DNA from: an uncultured bacterium
GTDB taxonomy: Bacteria; Babelota; Babeliae; Babelales; Vermiphilaceae
DNA length: 64,000 nt
NCBI GenBank assembly: GCA_963701085.1
Contig: OY969561.1
Location: 320,001 to 384,000, forward strand
Reading direction: 5' to 3'
Below, piece after piece: positions 33,001-39,000 of the stretch (positions within the stretch are counted from its first letter, which is position 1; every line of letters begins with the position of its first letter). The position numbers were made by a program.

Positions 33001-36000
33001 ATCAGTTTTTTATCACGATCAGTTACTTCAGATGAAATTTTACCATAAGAAACGCGTGCAGCATTGACAACATCAAGATCAGAACCCGCTACGCGGACAA
33101 GTTCAACGGAGCTTATGCCATCACCAAGAGGATCAATGTTATTTGTTGGAGCTGAGTATGCTAATACATCATGTGCGTTTAATGAATTTTTTATTTGTTC
33201 CATTACTGTGCCTTATCGTAGAGAAATTTTACTATGATGAACCATGTTTATAATAACACCGATCATAAAAAGATAACAGACCAAGGATGTATTTCCGTAA
33301 CTAACAAATGGCATTCCAACACCTTTGGTTGGAGCTAATCCTGTTGCAACTGCCATATTCATAACTGCTTGCAGATGAATGACAATCATAAAACCAAGAG
33401 TAACTAATGTGCTAAACGTATCAGCAAGTTGATGTGCAATACGGATACCAAAATATAAGAGAAGAATGAACAGTGTTATTAAAAAGAAGCATCCAATTAA
33501 TCCCGTTTCTTCCGCGATAATGGAGAAAATAAAATCAGTATGTTGCATGGGTAAATAGAAAAATTTTTGTCGTGAATGTGCAATTCCAGTGCCCAACCAA
33601 TTACCAGAACCGATAGCGATGAGTGATTGGATTATCTGAAATCCTGCTCCTTTTGGATCTTGCCATGGATTAAGGAATGTTAAGACACGTTGTAAGCGAT
33701 AGGGACGGAATAAAATCAAAAATATCGCGCTTACTGCTAACCCCACAAGTGTGATGATAATATGTTTTATTTGTGCATGTGCGCAAAAAAATAAAATGAT
33801 AGTGGTGAGTAGCAGCGTAATGGTCATGCCAAAATCTGGTTGTTTAAGAAGTGCAACACACATAAGACTAATGAGTGCGCAAAAAGGAACGAAATGTTTA
33901 AGGGTAATGGTTCCTTTTACTGTTTTTTTTTCAAGAAAATAAGCGACATAAAACAATAGTGTTATCTTAAGTAGTTCACTTGGTTGGAAAGAAAAGCCTG
34001 CAAAAGAAAGCCATCTGCTTGAACCATGAATGGTACGAGAAAATGTTGGTAATAGCGTGAGAAGGACTAAAAAAAGCGAGCAGAGGAATAAAAAGGGTGC
34101 TGTTTTTTTGATAAAACTGAGAGGTATCGCACGGCCAATGCAGAGTGCAATTAGGCCAAGGCCAAGTCCAGCAAGTTGGCGTTTTACAAAAAAAAGTGAT
34201 GTCCCAAATGTTTCTAATGCATATACAGAACTGGATGAATATACAAATAAGCATCCGATGAGAATGAGGGTTGCAATAATGGTAAGGAAAACATTTAAAT
34301 CTGCGTATAAAGGCAATTTTTTTGAAATCATAACATATTTTCCTAGTGATGTTTTTTTATATAATCTATCACCAATTTTTTAAAATGTTTTCCTCTTTTT
34401 TCATAATTTTCATATAAATCATAACTGCTTCCCGCGGGAGATAGCAACACACAATCATTTGGGTTTATGGTAGCGGTGCAAGCAGCAACAGCTTCATCTA
34501 GTGTGGCACAATGAGTTGCCGGAATGTTGTTGGCATTACACATGGTATATAATGATTGTGCTTCTTTACCAAAACAATAGATATGTTTTACCTGATTTCG
34601 TAGCTGAGCAATGAACGGTGCGCGATCAACTCCTTTGCTCAATCCACCAAGAAAAAGATGAAGAGGGCGGTTATGCAGTTTTTCAACGGCTGCTAGAGTT
34701 GATGCGGTGGTAGTTGCTTTTGAATCGTTGTAAAAATCAACATTGTTAATAGTGCCAATTTTTTCAATACGGTGTTCAGGTAATTGCACGGTATGTGCAA
34801 TTGTTTCTAATGCTGTACTGTTTAATTTCATAAGATCACACGTTGCTGCAATAACGAGTATATTTTCAATAAATGATACATTATGCAGGGCGGGTGTCAG
34901 TGGCATAAAAGGAGTGTGTATGCCATCTGTGTAACGCATTACGATATCATTGTGGATATAATACATGGATTCATTAACTGCGAGTGAATTCAATTCATTC
35001 ACAGAAGGACAAGTTTGGATAAAATACGAGCGTTTATGGCCATCAATTGGAGAATGCATTTTGTTGCGTAGTGTAAAATGCACCAGAGATAAATGATCTT
35101 TTGTTTGATGTGCAAGTATGTTTTCTTTTGCTAAAAAATAATCATTTTCGGTGGCGTGATGATCAAGATGATTGGGATAAAAGTTTGTCCAAATAGCAAG
35201 CATAGGAGCAAACGTTTTACAGCGATCCAATTGAAAGCTAGAGACCTCAAGTAATGCATAATCAACATTGTTCTGTTGATTAATTAAATCGAATGTAGCT
35301 GTTCCAATATTTCCGCCAACAGCAACAGGAATGGAAAGTTTTTTTAATAGTTCACTCAGAATATGAGTAGTGGATGTTTTGCCAACACTGCCAGTTATAG
35401 TAATGATTGGTTTATGAAATGTGGCATAAAAAAAATCAAGTTCATGTATCCATTTATGAACGTGCGTCGCGTAACGCATTGGGCTTATGTTAATGCCTGG
35501 AGAAGGAATAATGAATTCACAAGAATTAAAAAATGTTTCCTGTTCTTGCTCATTATACCACGTAATATTTTTTTCTTTTAAAAAATCGCATTCTTGTTCA
35601 GTTGGTATGCGTTTATCCATAACACTGAGCTGATGGCCCTGTGCATGCAAATAATTGACTGCTGCTTTACCAACAATACCAAAGCCCCATACTCCAATAT
35701 GTTTATTTTTTTGAATTATCATAATCAGCCTATTATCGTTTTATTCACTGTTCAATCCATTGTAGAAAAGCTGCATCGTCGATGTTGTGTTCATTATTAA
35801 TAGGTAACGTGTTGTTGTTAGATAAAAGTTCGAAGTTGACGAAATTTTTTTCTATTACAGGCGATTTTATAGGTGGATGTGATTGTATGTGTTTTACATA
35901 ATTTGATTGAGCATTAAATTTTTTAGGACATATAGCGCATGAATAAGGCATTTGTTCCGTATGCATTTTTCTGTGTCTTATCAGACTGCCTGCATCACAA

Positions 36001-39000
36001 AAACTGTTGGAGCATATGTTACAGGCATAAGGTTTTTCTTTTGTATGAATATGTCTGATGTGACTTTTAAGATTGCTGTTCTGAGTAAAACTTTTGGGAC
36101 ACATGTCACAGGTGTAAGGTTTTTCTTTTGTATGAATATGTCTGATATGATTTTTAAGATTGCTGTTCTGAGTAAAACTTTTGGGGCACATGTCACAGGT
36201 ATAAGGTCTTTCTTTTGTATGAATAAATCTGATATGTGTTTTAAGATTGCTGTTCTGAGTAAAACTTTTGTCGCATTGATCACATGCATATGGTTTTGCA
36301 ATATATGATTTATACTCTGTAGGTATAAACGGTGTGATACCGACGTATGCATTGTCTCTAATGGTTACACTGGGTGATTTACAAAGTTGTTTTTCCATAG
36401 TTGCTGATGATGTTGGTAGTAAAGAACAAAATAAAAAAATAGTGTAAGTAAAATTTTTTTTTTGCATAGGGTACCTTCTCTGCGACTAGCTTGTACAAGT
36501 ATATTGTTTTTAGGTATTCTACATCATATTAAAAATAGTGAGAAGTTAAAAAAAGTTGGTAGGGGTGTTGTATTCTTATGGATATTAAAAATAACAGTTT
36601 TAATATGGATGAATTCCTTCATCCTTTTATAGCAGCTCAAGATATATCACTTAATTCTCGTACTACATATCTTAATGCAATGGTGCAATTTGTGCGTTGG
36701 TGTACAGAAAAAAAAATAACTGAGCCAAAGCGTGAAACAATTTTATCATATAAATTTTGGCTTGATACAAAGGGATTAAGCTCATATACCAAAGCGATGT
36801 ACATAGTTGTTGTACGCCGCTTTTTTTGTGGACTGAAGATTCACAATTGTATCCCAATGTTTCGCGTGGAGTTAAAGGAATTAAAAAGTTTGCAAAAAGC
36901 CATCAAAAAGAATCACTATCAATTGATGCGCTTAGGCAATTATTTGCATCTATTAATTGTTCTACCCTGCAAGGAAAGCGTGATTTTGCCCTTATTAATA
37001 TTTTAGTGCGCACAGGCCTACGACTCAAAGAAATTGCTTCAGCAACATTAGAAGATATGTATGAGCAACGTGGAGAGATGCTATTATGGATTCATGGTAA
37101 AGGGCGTGCAAGTAAAGATGAGTTTGTGTTATTAACGCCGCAAACATTAGTTTCATTACATAATTATCTGCAATCACGCGTGATTAAGAGTGAAAAGGAT
37201 CCCCTTTTTGTTTCCTTAAGTGATCGTAATTATGGTAAAAAATTAACAATATTTTCATTATCACGTATTATTAAGCGGCGTTTGCGTGCAGCAGGATTTG
37301 ATAGTAAGCGCATTACTGCGCATAGTTTGCGTCATACATTTGGTGTGCTTTCTATGCAAGCAGGAGCATCATTGTATGAAGTGCAACTTGCTATGCGTCA
37401 TACTGCACCAACAACTACGCAATTGTATTTGGGAGATATTGAACGACTTAAGCGATTAGAGGCTTCACCTGAACGCAAGATGAGCAATTTATTAGATGTG
37501 TAAAAATAGGGAATGGTATGAAAAAATTACAAAAATATAGTTTGCTATTTGTTGTGATAAGTTTTAATTCAACGTATGGAATGGTGCTTAATAAGAAGCA
37601 TGTAACCACCTTAAAAACAGGGTGTACTCGCAATTTTTGGTTAAAGAAAAAAGTTAATAATTATGGTCTTGTAACAGCAACAATGCCACAAACATCAAAA
37701 AGTGCATTGGGAAATTTTAGACTTGATAAAACATATGGTGTGAGAGATTATTTAGCACAATATATAGCATTTGATAAAAAAATATCGCTACAAGATGCTG
37801 TTTGGGAAGATTTTGATGCTATAAGAAAGGCATATTACCAATTTTTAAGTCATAATGCATCTGATGTTATACAAGCTGCTCTTAATAATAATGTTATTGA
37901 TCCACATTATGCAGTGCAAGCATTATATTTTACGCACAAGGTGGTTACACAACTTCAAGATCACATAGAACATAACCAAGATTTTGGACATGAATATACA
38001 AGTGATCCAAAAAAACATATTTGGATTATAAAATGTGAACAAAAAGCAATTGTAAATTTAGTTAATTTTTTGCAACAGAGACCAGTAAATCCAGTAAACA
38101 GGAATTATAAAATAAACCCATCTGGACGTGTGTTTAAAGAAAAAGAACATCAAGTGGTTGTCCATTTACCCATTCAAAAGAGTATAAGACCTCATAGAAT
38201 AGCGCATGTACATGATGGAGTTTTAGGAACATTCGATCCTCAGATAAACTATCCTATTCAGGAATATTTAGAAAAATATCTTAAAGAACAAGATGATAAA
38301 ATTGAGTGGCGAGCGCTTAAAAAAGCATATGATGATTTTTTATTTTATAATATGCCATCGACTATACAAGATTCATTTGAAAATTCAAAAAATGCTCAAT
38401 ATATTGTTTGTAGTGTAAGGCCGATCATTAAAAACGTAACACAAAAAGAAGTTGGAGAAGCATTATTATTCACTTTAGATGTTGCGCGCGCAATGCGACG
38501 TTATTTACAGCTTGATCATCACATAACACTCACATTAACAGATGAGGATGTACAATTATTTGCTCAGTTGGGAATTGAGCCAGCTACAATCGCGCAAACA
38601 TGGGATGGTGTGTTGGGAAATTTCGCGCTTACCAAAAAACAAAATGGTAAAACAAAATGTACGATCCAAGATTATTTATGTAAATATATTGCAAGAAATT
38701 TGCAGATACCCGAAGACGCGGTAATAAGTGAAGCAACATTTTTAGATATCAAAAAAGCATTTGAAGTATTTGTTAGTCATAACCATCCAGACGCTATTTT
38801 GATAGATTTTGAAAATGGAGTAATTAATAAGCAGCATGCAAAAGAAGCATTGGAATTTACGTTGTGGGTGATTAGTGCATTTGAAGAATATTTGTCAGAG
38901 TTTAAAGATGACTCATATGAAATGGAACTGTTTGAACTGTTTTGGTTAATCAGCAGAATAAAAGATACATCATATACTATGAGATTTGTGGAAAAAGGTG

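What a model noticed while it worked through the whole genome (the two positions that open the first line are those of the whole stretch)
35745..36467. Secreted protein with five eukaryote-type C2H2 zinc fingers
This 240-aa ORF has a signal peptide, the Met-Glu site, and five tandem classical C-x2-C-x12-H-x3-4-H fingers. Four of them are joined by TKE(K/R)PY linkers like Krüppel-type eukaryotic factors. It is a candidate nucleic-acid-binding effector. Similar multi-finger proteins are scattered through the phylum.
Evidence so far: - PF13465 zf-H2C2_2 at 4.1e-35 and PF00096 at 2.8e-32. - Five fingers, starting at residues 62, 91, 120, 149 and 177, after the N-terminal signal peptide. - Matches occur in 31 of 121 phylum genomes and 20 of 80 genera, with up to 24 matches in one genome. 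- No listed paper combines C2H2 with Dependentiae terms.
(Added by a program. Inside this text positions count along the whole contig: contig position 320,001 is position 1 of the stretch shown here. "Call 12" and the like, gene names such as g00115 and contig names such as C1 are that model's own, and its searches are not shown. The text may have been shortened before it was handed on; [...] marks where a part breaks off. The agent that wrote the report below was given it as the finding of a first reader that could run no searches.)

Follow-up and report, generated by a model that had tools for sequence, protein, structure and literature searches.

The report
Exported five-zinc-finger protein in a Babeliales bacterium
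A tiny intracellular-type bacterium encodes an export-tagged protein with five animal-style DNA-binding zinc fingers, probably sent into its host cell to bind host DNA, and it belongs to a fast-changing gene family found across its phylum.

Summary
Window 35745..36467 (-) encodes a 240-aa protein. It has a Sec-type signal peptide ending in the genome-wide small-residue/Met-Glu site. It has five canonical C2H2 fingers (Pfam E 4e-35; model pLDDT 94-98) and an acidic C-terminal helix.

- **Organism:** a Babeliales (Dependentiae) bacterium with a closed 1.2-Mb genome. This is its only C2H2 gene.
- **Not contamination:** in 7 of 9 examinable same-genus genomes, 1-3 export-tagged multi-finger genes sit at the same site. 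That site lies between a conserved Xer-like recombinase and murD.
- **Phylum spread:** 81 of 261 genomes carry C2H2 matches.
- **Export tag:** 44 of 51 complete multi-finger ORFs have signal-peptide-like N-termini, against 44% of this genome's ORFs. None of 26 ORFs from other records have one; 25 of those are Endozoicomonadaceae.
- **Modular evolution:** the nearest relative keeps both flanks at 91% identity, but its finger array is only 46% identical. Fingers 1-3 are a recent 87-bp triplication.

Best reading (about 0.55): a Sec-exported, host-delivered DNA-binding effector built as a constant chassis with a variable array. Secretion beyond the inner membrane, host entry and DNA binding are all untested. 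No paper found in my searches describes this.

The parts
35745..36467 (-). CDS of the 240-aa exported five-finger C2H2 protein (stop codon at 35745-35747)
   Evidence: ORF list. Pfam zf-H2C2_2 4.1e-35 and zf-C2H2 2.8e-32. It is the only C2H2 locus in the 1,198,634-bp genome.
36474..36479 (-). Shine-Dalgarno-like AGAAGG, 6 nt upstream of the ATG at 36467
   Evidence: Read from the sequence. It supports Met1, not Met24, as the start. No purine-rich hexamer precedes Met24.
36399..36467 (-). Signal peptide, residues 1-23 (MQKKN / FTYTIFLFCSLL / PTSSAT)
   Evidence: Hydrophobic core score 2.12 at residue 7. It has an n-h-c layout with no lipobox. The same architecture occurs in 44 of 51 family members.
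36393..36398 (-). Met24-Glu25, the 'Met-Glu site' at the predicted start of the mature protein
   Evidence: Genome-wide motif [A/G/S/C]-M-E placed 4-10 residues after the h-core in 99 ORFs, with 10.1-fold dipeptide enrichment. 103 of 476 signal-peptide-like ORFs carry it, against 31 of 658 others.
36294..36392 (-). Leader, residues 26-58, low-confidence or disordered, conserved with the nearest relative
   Evidence: 53 of 58 N-terminal residues are identical to P0002. pLDDT is 44-57. It shows weak similarity to the N-terminus of the 134-aa ORF at the same locus in G253.
35877..36293 (-). Array of five C2H2 fingers, residues 59-197. Helix positions -1..+6 read QNSNLKT, QNSNLKN, QNSNLKS, DAGSLIR and AQSNYVK.
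   Evidence: AlphaFold2 with 55 sequences gives pLDDT 94-98 and five beta-beta-alpha units. The best solved relatives are ZFP568 (9.7e-59), Aart, PRDM9 and CTCF.
36000..36270 (-). 87-bp tandem repeat, 3.1 copies at 91% identity, encoding fingers 1-3
   Evidence: TRF and direct-repeat family D1. Units 2 and 3 differ at 4 nt. Their only amino-acid change is at helix position +6.
35748..35876 (-). Acidic C-terminal tail, residues 198-240 (pI 4.35), ending in the helix IDDAAFLQWIEQ (35748-35783)
   Evidence: 39 of 43 residues are identical in P0002. 9 of the last 12 are identical at the extreme C-terminus of the G253 134-aa ORF. Helix 231-239 is predicted. Composition.
34343..35722 (-). murD, 22 nt downstream on the same strand; the fixed downstream border of the variable zinc-finger locus
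   Evidence: Mur ligase domains. Synteny in 9 same-genus genomes. No terminator-like site lies in the 22-nt gap.
36578..37503 (+). Divergent Xer-like tyrosine recombinase, the fixed upstream border. In the window it is split into two overlapping frames (36578-37006 and 36826-37503) at a T7 run (36821-36827).
   Evidence: Pfam Phage_int_SAM_1 and Phage_integrase. It is an intact 308-309 aa ORF with 81-94% identity over 224-225 aligned residues in 9 genus genomes. Contigs of three runs carry one extra T there. T-run read.

Best explanation
The gene encodes a Sec-exported effector. It most likely leaves the bacterium, reaches the cytosol of the eukaryotic (protist) host and binds host DNA through five Krueppel-type C2H2 fingers.

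**Shown by sequence**
- A classical signal peptide with the lineage's Met-Glu cleavage-region motif.
- Five intact zinc-coordinating fingers, with TGEKP-like linkers between fingers 1-4.
- A basic array (pI 9.3) and an acidic, helical C-terminal tail.

**Inferred steps**
- Signal peptidase I cleaves the precursor and leaves a mature protein of about 25 kDa.
- The protein crosses the outer membrane through the only detectable machinery (secretins plus GspE/PilB-type ATPases) or in vesicles.
- It folds with zinc in the reducing host cytosol.
- It enters the nucleus passively, because it is small.
- It reads an A-rich site. Fingers 1-3 carry nearly identical recognition helices, which suggests a repeated N-A-A triplet. 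This rests on the recalled C2H2 recognition code and is low-confidence.
- The tail acts as a docking or activation module.

**Evolution**
The protein is a constant chassis (signal, leader and tail) around a variable finger array. The array changes by unit duplication and array replacement. The gene sits in a copy-number-variable locus next to murD.
For: **Fold and family**
- Pfam 4.1e-35 and 2.8e-32.
- PDB relatives are all DNA-bound poly-finger proteins, the best at 9.7e-59.
- pLDDT is 94-98 across residues 60-200.

**Export**
- The signal peptide and Met-Glu site match a motif shared by about 100 ORFs of this genome.
- Signal peptidase I is present.
- Two secretins and two T2SSE-type ATPases are present.
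- With the N-terminus held inside by its lysines, the finger domain ends up outside the cytoplasm. It therefore cannot act on the bacterial chromosome.

**Family trait**
- 44 of 51 complete multi-finger ORFs from phylum loci have signal-peptide-like N-termini, against 503 of 1134 ORFs genome-wide (binomial p 6e-10; related genomes are not independent).
- 0 of 26 multi-finger ORFs from other records have one. 25 of those come from records titled as Endozoicomonadaceae genera.

**Lifestyle**
- MurD relatives are named Candidatus Babeliales at 63-75% identity.
- The genome is 1.2 Mb.
- A cultured member of the phylum is an intracellular pathogen in which 44% of CDS carry signal peptides and secreted proteins are proposed effectors (PMC6561590, passages read).

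**Rapid, targeted change**
- Against P0002 the flanks are 53/58 and 39/43 identical, the array 64/139 and the helix positions 12/35.
- Fingers 2 and 3 differ in protein only at contact position +6.
- Across 138 canonical fingers, entropy is highest at helix positions -1, +3 and +6.
- The locus holds 0-3 multi-finger genes across 9 genus genomes.

**Size and composition**
- The mature protein is 25.2 kDa with pI 9.0, and the tail has pI 4.35.
- GC3 is at the 30th percentile of the genome, so the gene is a resident one.

**Independent presence**
- Near-identical pieces of the gene occur in contigs of runs X2 and X4.

**Precedent**
- Magnaporthe MoHTR2 has a signal peptide plus a C2H2 domain and acts as a nuclear effector (PMC12488382, passages read).
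Against: - Nothing shows export past the inner membrane, delivery into a host, nuclear entry or DNA binding.
- No T3SS (FHIPEP), T4SS (VirB4) or T6SS (VipB) marker was found in a genome that is 92.6% complete. The step from periplasm to host cytosol therefore has no known injector.
- No classical NLS lies outside the fingers. The only basic cluster is RHRK inside finger 4.
- The linkers read TKEKP, not TGEKP. Finger 5 has Y where the conserved L sits.
- The gene lies 22 nt upstream of murD on the same strand with no terminator-like site. Co-transcription with cell-wall genes is possible, and a bacterial-envelope role cannot be excluded.
- The signal-peptide calls rest on my own hydrophobicity rule, not a trained predictor.
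- The family loci were chosen as the best Pfam matches, which is a selection bias.
- The predicted DNA target rests on a recalled code.
Confidence: 0.55

Rival explanations
1. The protein is exported but works at the bacterial envelope, in the periplasm, on the cell surface or in vesicles. The fingers would then serve as protein-, RNA- or zinc-binding modules rather than DNA readers. Examples are zinc buffering or storage, or adhesion to a host surface or vacuole component.
For: - The signal peptide only guarantees passage across the inner membrane.
- No injection system was detected.
- The gene is co-oriented with murD and ftsW, 22 nt away, with no terminator-like site.
- Five Cys2His2 sites would bind five zinc ions.
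Against: - TGEKP-type linkers and variability focused on helix positions -1, +3 and +6 are the signature of DNA-reading arrays.
- The closest solved structures are all DNA complexes.
- The locus is absent in 2 of 9 genus genomes, so it is dispensable for envelope biogenesis.
- Array turnover between near relatives suits a changing external target better than a housekeeping role.
Confidence: 0.2
2. The protein is delivered to the host but acts outside the nuclear genome. It would bind host RNA, organellar (mitochondrial) DNA or a host protein.
For: - Weak Pfam matches to dsRNA-binding finger types: zf-C2H2_jaz 5.6e-10 and zf-met 6.1e-09 on finger 5.
- No NLS was found.
- The title of the 2018 preprint on the cultured phylum member says it targets the protist mitochondrion (listing only). 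The passages I read do not mention mitochondria.
Against: - The stronger matches are to the classical DNA-binding families.
- The jaz and zf-met matches have no separately significant stretch.
- No mitochondrial targeting feature follows the cleavage site (sequence inspection only).
Confidence: 0.12
3. The protein is a cytoplasmic regulator of the bacterium's own genes. The hydrophobic N-terminus would be non-functional, or translation would start at Met24.
For: - Met24 could in principle serve as an internal start.
- Some bacteria have zinc-finger regulators such as Ros/MucR (references cited in PMC12491435).
Against: - An SD-like AGAAGG precedes Met1, and nothing comparable precedes Met24.
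- Pfam did not list the Ros/MucR family among the 14 families matched.
- The signal peptide is conserved across the family.
- The gene is missing from 2 of 9 genus genomes and from most of the phylum.
- Array turnover does not fit a conserved regulon.
Confidence: 0.08
4. The gene is an artefact: eukaryotic DNA mis-assembled or mis-binned into a bacterial genome.
For: Apart from P0002, the best database matches are animal zinc-finger proteins at 42-50% identity.
Against: - The genome is a single 1.2-Mb contig, and the gene lies between murD and a recombinase.
- The same arrangement occurs in 7 of 9 genus genomes.
- GC3 is typical for the genome.
- The gene has a bacterial signal peptide and an SD-like site.
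- Pieces of the gene were recovered in other runs.
Confidence: 0.01

Closest known systems
Eukaryotic Krueppel-type poly-C2H2 zinc-finger transcription factors (solved examples: ZFP568, PRDM9, CTCF, YY1, TFIIIA, designed Aart)
   Same: - The same domain, spacing, F/L core and beta-beta-alpha fold.
- Tandem fingers joined by five-residue T-x-E-K/R-P linkers.
- phmmer E 9.7e-59 to 2.4e-21 and 42-50% identity to animal proteins over the array.
- Variability concentrated at helix positions -1, +3 and +6.
   Different: - It is encoded in a 1.2-Mb bacterial genome.
- It carries a bacterial Sec signal peptide.
- It has no KRAB, SCAN, BTB or other eukaryotic partner domain.
- Fingers 1-3 use H-x4-H and a 29-residue period.
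- The linker has K in place of G.
Magnaporthe oryzae MoHTR1/MoHTR2, secreted C2H2 nuclear effectors
   Same: A signal peptide followed by a C2H2 zinc-finger domain in a small protein that a pathogen secretes and that acts in the host nucleus (PMC12488382, passages read).
   Different: - The producer is a eukaryote that uses the ER secretory route.
- MoHTR2 is 110 aa with one zinc-finger region (residues 68-101), against five fingers here.
- No sequence relationship was tested beyond the shared domain type.
TAL effectors of Xanthomonas (recalled, no call)
   Same: Working likeness only. Both have conserved delivery and C-terminal modules around a variable tandem-repeat DNA-reading array. The array evolves by repeat duplication and exchange, and the C-terminus is acidic.
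   Different: - The repeat type is unrelated (33-35-aa RVD repeats against 28-29-aa zinc fingers).
- TALEs use a type III secretion signal, and no T3SS marker is present here.
- TALE NLS and activation domains are experimentally shown. Here neither is.
Zinc-finger 'eukaryotic-like proteins' of Endozoicomonadaceae (Kistimonas and relatives)
   Same: - These are bacterial genomes of host-associated lineages that encode tandem HTGEKPY-linked C2H2 arrays.
- Enrichment of zinc-finger proteins in Kistimonas is noted in print (PMC12491435, passages read).
- A Candidatus Endonucleobacter protein is among the hits (P0098).
   Different: None of the 25 complete multi-finger ORFs I extracted from those records has a signal-peptide-like N-terminus. 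The Babeliales family almost always has one. The delivery route must therefore differ.
Ros/MucR prokaryotic zinc-finger regulators
   Same: They are bacterial proteins with a Cys2His2 zinc site that bind DNA (known from references cited in PMC12491435; otherwise recalled).
   Different: They have a single, non-classical finger inside a larger globular domain. They are cytoplasmic and have no tandem array and no TGEKP linkers. The Pfam scan of this protein did not list that family.

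Membership tests
Classical C2H2 zinc finger (Pfam PF00096 / PF13465), Krueppel-type tandem array | C-x2-4-C-x12-H-x3-5-H ligand spacing in every unit | tested here: met
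   Five of five units. The first Cys is at 62, 91, 120, 149 and 177. Spacing is H-x4-H in units 1-3 and H-x3-H in units 4-5.
Classical C2H2 zinc finger (Pfam PF00096 / PF13465), Krueppel-type tandem array | Score above Pfam's curated gathering threshold | tested here: met
   PF13465 scores 118.5 bits (cut-off 40). PF00096 scores 109.7 bits (cut-off 25.2) with 5 stretches.
Classical C2H2 zinc finger (Pfam PF00096 / PF13465), Krueppel-type tandem array | Conserved hydrophobic core (F after the second Cys, L at helix +4) and beta-beta-alpha fold | tested here: met
   F is present in all five units. L is at +4 in units 1-4, and Y in unit 5. The model shows two short strands plus a helix per unit at pLDDT 94-98.
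Classical C2H2 zinc finger (Pfam PF00096 / PF13465), Krueppel-type tandem array | TGEKP-type inter-finger linker | tested here: inconclusive
   Three linkers read T-K-E-K/R-P (G replaced by K) and one reads T-E-Q-M-P. The family consensus in the phylum is T-G-E-K-P.
Classical C2H2 zinc finger (Pfam PF00096 / PF13465), Krueppel-type tandem array | Zinc-dependent folding and sequence-specific DNA binding | not testable with these tools
   Needs purified protein, with metal analysis and SELEX or EMSA.
Secreted bacterial effector acting in the host nucleus (nucleomodulin) | Export signal recognised by a secretion system of the producer | tested here: inconclusive
   - A Sec-type n-h-c signal plus the genome-wide Met-Glu motif.
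- SPase I, two secretins and two T2SSE ATPases are present.
- No trained predictor was available, and the outer-membrane step is unknown.
- No T3SS, T4SS or T6SS markers were found.
Secreted bacterial effector acting in the host nucleus (nucleomodulin) | Presence in the host cell and nucleus during infection | not testable with these tools
   No host, culture or RNA run is available (one search listed no RNA holder).
Secreted bacterial effector acting in the host nucleus (nucleomodulin) | Nuclear localisation signal, or a size that permits passive entry | tested here: inconclusive
   - No K[KR]x[KR]-type cluster lies outside the fingers.
- The mature protein is 25.2 kDa.
- 5 of 48 relatives carry such a cluster just after the signal peptide, against 18 of 576 signal-peptide-like ORFs in this genome. 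This is a weak hint.
Ros/MucR prokaryotic zinc finger | Match to the ROS_MUCR family model; a single finger in a cytoplasmic regulator | tested here: not met
   That family is not among the 14 Pfam families listed at E<=0.01. The protein has five tandem fingers and a signal peptide.
Integron (recombinase plus cassette array) | IntI-type integrase, and attC sites between co-oriented cassettes | tested here: not met
   The intact orthologue of the neighbouring recombinase scores 34.6 bits on TIGR02249, whose cut-off is 265. Spacers between the three zinc-finger genes in G257 are 26 and 8 nt, too short for attC sites.
TAL effector | 33-35-aa RVD repeats and a type III secretion signal | tested here: not met
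   The repeat unit is a 29-aa zinc finger. No FHIPEP match is in the genome. The likeness is in working logic only.

The most novel reading that the evidence does not exclude
Babeliales/Dependentiae would carry a bacterial counterpart of TAL effectors or KRAB zinc-finger proteins: a family of Sec-exported, modular transcription-factor mimics.

- A lineage-specific chassis stays constant. It comprises the signal peptide with a Met-Glu mature N-terminus, a short leader and an acidic C-terminal helix that recruits host machinery.
- The Krueppel-type finger array is rebuilt quickly by unit duplication, contact-residue substitution and whole-array replacement.
- This retargets host promoters or repeats as hosts change.
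- The locus between the conserved third Xer-like recombinase and murD would be the genus's hot spot for this turnover.
Probability: 0.3. Interest if true: 0.85.

Novelty: new variant of a known kind. Interest (0 to 1): 0.68.

Why it matters
**A new effector type.** Known bacterial proteins that act in host nuclei use TAL repeats, ankyrin repeats, SET domains or enzymes (recalled, not searched). I found no characterised bacterial effector built from a classical tandem C2H2 array. If these proteins bind host DNA, Dependentiae would use the eukaryote's own commonest DNA-reading module against it. The phylum is widespread, almost uncultured, and described as obligate intracellular parasites of protists.

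**Directly testable.**
- A 25-kDa mature protein can be made and put through SELEX.
- The array's recognition helices predict a target.
- The natural chassis-plus-variable-array alleles (this gene, P0002 and the one-finger G253 form) make a ready comparison set.

**A handle on secretion.** The family also marks the phylum's Sec-dependent secretome and its unexplained Met-Glu processing site.

Tried and rejected
- **Single-sequence AlphaFold2:** mean pLDDT 32, unusable. It was replaced by the 55-sequence run.
- **DNA of P0002's contig:** the metagenome scan returned 35 other relatives but not that contig. Codon-level comparison of flanks against array was therefore impossible.
- **Prokaryote genome scan with the single protein:** one locus only.
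- **Same scan with alignment A1:** I used a degenerate linker DNA pattern instead.
- **RNA evidence:** no RNA holder is listed, so nothing can be said about expression.
- **Promoter and terminator scan:** 5 promoter-like sites against 6.7 expected, which is uninformative.
- **Inversion or shufflon idea:** a 16-nt inverted pair flanks the gene. Exact inverted matches between murD and the recombinase are neither above shuffles nor conserved in the 9 genus loci. Rejected.
- **Integron idea:** rejected.
- **C-terminal motif as a phylum-wide signal:** the degenerate DNA pattern is exact only in G000 and G253 among 261 genomes. The one-mismatch hits are few (single hits in 12 further genomes plus one more in G000); I did not inspect them and treat them as unconfirmed. 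A scan for a C-terminal tryptophan motif in this genome found nothing recurrent.
- **NLS-like clusters after the signal peptide in relatives:** 5 of 48 against 18 of 576, too weak to carry weight.
- **Origin of the domain:** identities to animal proteins (42-50%) and to same-family bacterial paralogues (best segments 44-50%) are alike. No tree was attempted because short repeated units carry too little signal.

Full report
**The observation**

The minus-strand ORF at 35745..36467 encodes 240 residues.
- The five fingers begin at Cys62, 91, 120, 149 and 177. Fingers 1-3 have H-x4-H spacing and a 29-residue period. Fingers 4-5 have H-x3-H.
- The linkers are TKERPY, TKEKPY, TKEKPY and TEQMPY.
- An AlphaFold2 run on a 55-sequence alignment gives pLDDT 94-98 over residues 60-200, with five beta-beta-alpha units. 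The single-sequence run was useless.
- The best solved relatives are DNA-bound poly-finger proteins: ZFP568 at 9.7e-59, then Aart, PRDM9, CTCF, YY1 and TFIIIA.
- NCBIfam has no model for the protein.

**The N-terminus**

Residues 1-23 have a classical n-h-c layout: MQKKN, FTYTIFLFCSLL, PTSSAT. There is no lipobox. An AGAAGG hexamer lies 6 nt before ATG-1, and nothing similar precedes Met24.

The 'Met-Glu site' is real and genome-wide.
- I made a crude ORF set of 1134 ORFs from the laid genome. By my hydrophobicity rule, 503 have a signal-peptide-like N-terminus.
- That is 44%, the same share that Deeg et al. report for Chromulinavorax (PMC6561590, passages read).
- In residues 15-40 of these ORFs, ME is the most enriched dipeptide, at 10.1-fold.
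- 99 ORFs have it 4-10 residues after the hydrophobic core.
- The position before Met is A, G, S or C in 88 of the 99, and T in 7. The position three before Met is mostly L, I, T, A or V.
- That is the (-3,-1) pattern of signal peptidase I, which the genome encodes. The mature proteins would therefore begin Met-Glu.
- I found no description of this motif in the papers listed. I read passages of only two of them.

**The organism**

- The genome is a single contig of 1,198,634 bp at 37% GC and is 92.6% complete.
- Named relatives of its MurD are 'Candidatus Babeliales bacterium' at 63-75% identity and 'Candidatus Dependentiae bacterium' at 48%.
- All five PF00096 matches in the genome lie in this one ORF.
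- The gene's GC3 is at the 30th percentile of the genome's ORFs.

**The locus**

I fetched the murD neighbourhood from the ten other genomes of the genus. One of them, G251, has murD at a contig end and could not be examined.
- All nine examinable genomes share the same frame: a tyrosine recombinase of 308-309 aa (81-94% identical over 224-225 aligned residues), transcribed divergently, then murD, then ftsW (in 8 of the 9; not in G256).
- Seven of the nine have multi-finger, signal-peptide-bearing C2H2 genes between the recombinase and murD, co-oriented with murD.

| Genome | Multi-finger genes at the site | Other ORFs there |
|---|---|---|
| G257 | 3 | - |
| G255 | 3 | one single-finger ORF |
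| G248 | 2 | one single-finger ORF |
| G253 | 1 | 134-aa ORF (see below) |
| G250 | 1 | - |
| G252 | 1 | - |
| G254 | 1 | - |
| G256 | 0 | recombinase abuts murD |
| G249 | 0 | recombinase abuts murD |

- The window's gene is therefore a positional member of an old, copy-number-variable locus. It is neither contamination nor a recent acquisition by this strain.
- The paralogues are only 32-45% identical to it, and only over the fingers.

**Chassis and array**

The only close relative in 5.8 billion proteins is P0002, a 237-aa protein on a 1,819-bp metagenome contig.
- The N-terminal 58 residues are 53/58 identical, and the C-terminal 43 are 39/43 identical.
- The 139-residue array is only 64/139 identical, and the 35 recognition-helix positions 12/35. 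That is no better than an unrelated array.

In G253 a 134-aa ORF at the same locus matches both flanks of the window's protein.
- It has a signal peptide followed by AMERQNCKSP, compared with TMEKQLCKSP here.
- Its extreme C-terminus reads IDDAYFLEWINQ, compared with IDDAAFLQWIEQ here.
- It holds a single degenerate finger that has lost its last histidine.

Three states of one chassis therefore exist: two different five-finger arrays and a collapsed array.

Inside the window's gene, fingers 1-3 are an 87-bp tandem triplication at 91% identity. Units 2 and 3 differ at four bases. Three of these are synonymous, and the fourth changes helix position +6 from N to S. Position +6 is T in unit 1.

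The C-terminal motif is exact only in G000 and G253 among 261 phylum genomes. The chassis is therefore lineage-specific. Other genus members share their own chassis types, with common N-termini and tails such as ...IYQPI.PLFE... in G257 and G253.

**The family**

- PF00096 matches occur in 81 of 261 phylum genomes at E<=0.001. 59 exceed the cut-off, 49 of 145 genera are represented, and 56 of 189 high-quality genomes have a match.
- The spread across families is patchy, for example f3 14/16, f1 30/79 and f2 7/41.
- One genome has at least seven open frames with fingers within 8 kb (G013:C1:234-241 kb).
- From the fetched loci I extracted 51 distinct complete ORFs with two or more fingers. 44 have a signal-peptide-like N-terminus from the first ATG, and 48 if a downstream ATG is allowed. 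The genome baseline is 44%.
- These loci were picked as the best Pfam matches, and related genomes are not independent.
- Their 138 canonical fingers have the eukaryotic consensus [YF]-x-C-x2-C-x-K-x-F-x5-L-x2-H-x-R-T-H-T-G-E-K-P. Column entropy is highest at helix positions -1, +3 and +6.

- I extracted 32 complete multi-finger ORFs from these loci. Six have a signal-peptide-like N-terminus.
- All six come from two MAG records with no taxon in the title (three loci: L122, L151, L152). They carry the same small-residue/Met/Glu-or-Gln motif.
- The other 26 have none. 25 of them come from records titled Endozoicomonas, Kistimonas, Sansalvadorimonas, Sororendozoicomonas or Endozoicomonadaceae.

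Fusing a Sec signal to a eukaryote-type array is thus a trait of this phylum.

**Route out of the cell**

The genome has signal peptidase I, two secretins and two strong GspE/PilB-type ATPases. It has no match to FHIPEP, VirB4 or VipB. The step from periplasm to host is inferred.

**Mechanism proposed**

The precursor is exported unfolded by Sec and cleaved before Met24. It is then released through a secretin-dependent system or in vesicles. In the host cytosol it binds zinc.
- At 25.2 kDa and pI 9.0 it can enter the nucleus without an NLS.
- The array reads DNA. From the recalled recognition code, Q at -1 and N at +3 in fingers 1-3 point to three N-A-A triplets, an A-rich site. This is inference only.
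- The acidic, hydrophobic tail (pI 4.35, helix 231-239) is placed like an activation or docking module. It is conserved where the array is not.

**Against this reading**
- There is no evidence of delivery.
- There is no injector.
- There is no NLS.
- The linkers are non-canonical.
- A 22-nt gap to murD without a terminator-like site leaves room for co-transcription with cell-wall genes.

**Independent presence**

Contigs of run X2 cover 36156-36425 with 3 differing letters. Contigs of run X4 cover 35828-36120 with 0-1 differing letters. The best holder may be the source sample. No RNA holder was listed.

**Literature**

| Search terms | Papers |
|---|---|
| C2H2 + Dependentiae | 0 |
| zinc finger + Dependentiae | 1, on methyltransferases by its title |
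| TM6 + zinc finger + amoeba | 3, unrelated by title |
| candidate phylum TM6 + zinc | 10, none on zinc fingers by title or abstract |
| C2H2 + nucleomodulin | 3, leading to the fungal MoHTR effectors |
| C2H2 + eukaryotic-like + endosymbiont + bacterial | 3 |
| C2H2 + Legionella + effector + eukaryotic | 18, 12 listed; none of the 12 describes a bacterial C2H2 effector by title or abstract |

- Subscription-journal papers on TM6 genomics are not in the library, and supplements were not read. A domain table there could list C2H2.

**Verdict**

The feature is real and bacterial. It belongs to a phylum-wide, export-tagged, rapidly diversifying family of eukaryote-type zinc-finger proteins. I file it as a new variant of a known kind: eukaryotic-like effector proteins and nucleomodulins. 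Function remains inferred.

Noticed in passing
whole genome; window examples 39181..39939 (+), 31700..32167 (-), 1879..2394 (-): About 100 ORFs of this genome have a signal peptide that ends in [A/G/S/C]-Met-Glu, and less often Met-Asp, Met-Gln or Met-Lys. The mature proteins would therefore start with Met-Glu. The same motif follows the signal peptide in many zinc-finger proteins across the phylum. Its purpose is unknown. Met-Glu, Met-Asp, Met-Gln and Met-Asn are the N-termini that eukaryotic NatB acetylates (recalled), which may or may not be relevant.
   Followed up: partly
window 36578..37503 (+), T-run at 36821..36827: The Xer-like recombinase next to the gene is split into two frames in the window. 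Contigs of three runs (X1, X2, X3) carry one more T in the T7 run. The orthologue is an intact 308-309 aa ORF in nine genus genomes. The frameshift is therefore a homopolymer assembly error or a strain-specific or phase-variable change.
   Followed up: partly
window 36578..37503 and G000:C1:437751-438281, 575621-576124: The genome has two stronger tyrosine recombinases elsewhere (E 2.9e-48 and 4.8e-43). The one beside the zinc-finger locus is thus a third, diverged Xer-like enzyme, below every NCBIfam cut-off. It is conserved in position in all nine examinable genus genomes, next to a variable gene array. No link to the array's turnover was found.
   Followed up: partly
L102:6323-6727 (+) (G253): A 134-aa ORF at the same locus carries the window protein's signal/leader and its C-terminal IDDA.FL.WI.Q motif. 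It has only one degenerate finger, with the last His lost. It looks like a collapsed-array orthologue.
   Followed up: yes
G013:C1:234186-241557 (L008 covers part): At least seven adjacent open frames on one strand hold C2H2 fingers (5 to 12 fingers in the three read). All three read have signal peptides ending ...SMQE or ...AMERE. This is a tandem expansion of the family.
   Followed up: partly
L111-L190, e.g. L135, L118-L141, L164-L166, L182-L184: Endozoicomonadaceae records, including an isolate genome of Endozoicomonas ascidiicola, hold many tandem HTGEKPY-linked C2H2 arrays. Some loci have 15-26 linker matches. None of the 25 complete ORFs I read has a signal peptide.
   Followed up: partly
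L103, L104, L015 and others: Several family members begin their mature part with Met-Lys-Arg-x-Arg (for example ...NAMKRARND and ...HPMKRSR), a classical-NLS-like cluster. The count is 5 of 48, against 18 of 576 signal-peptide-like ORFs of G000. This is a weak hint of nuclear targeting in some paralogues.
   Followed up: partly
window 37518..39026 (+) and 39181..39939 (+): Two further signal-peptide ORFs of unknown function follow the recombinase. The 251-aa one has the Met-Glu site and has relatives (26-40% identity) near the same locus in five genus genomes: G257, G253, G254 (full length) and G249 (fragment).
   Followed up: no
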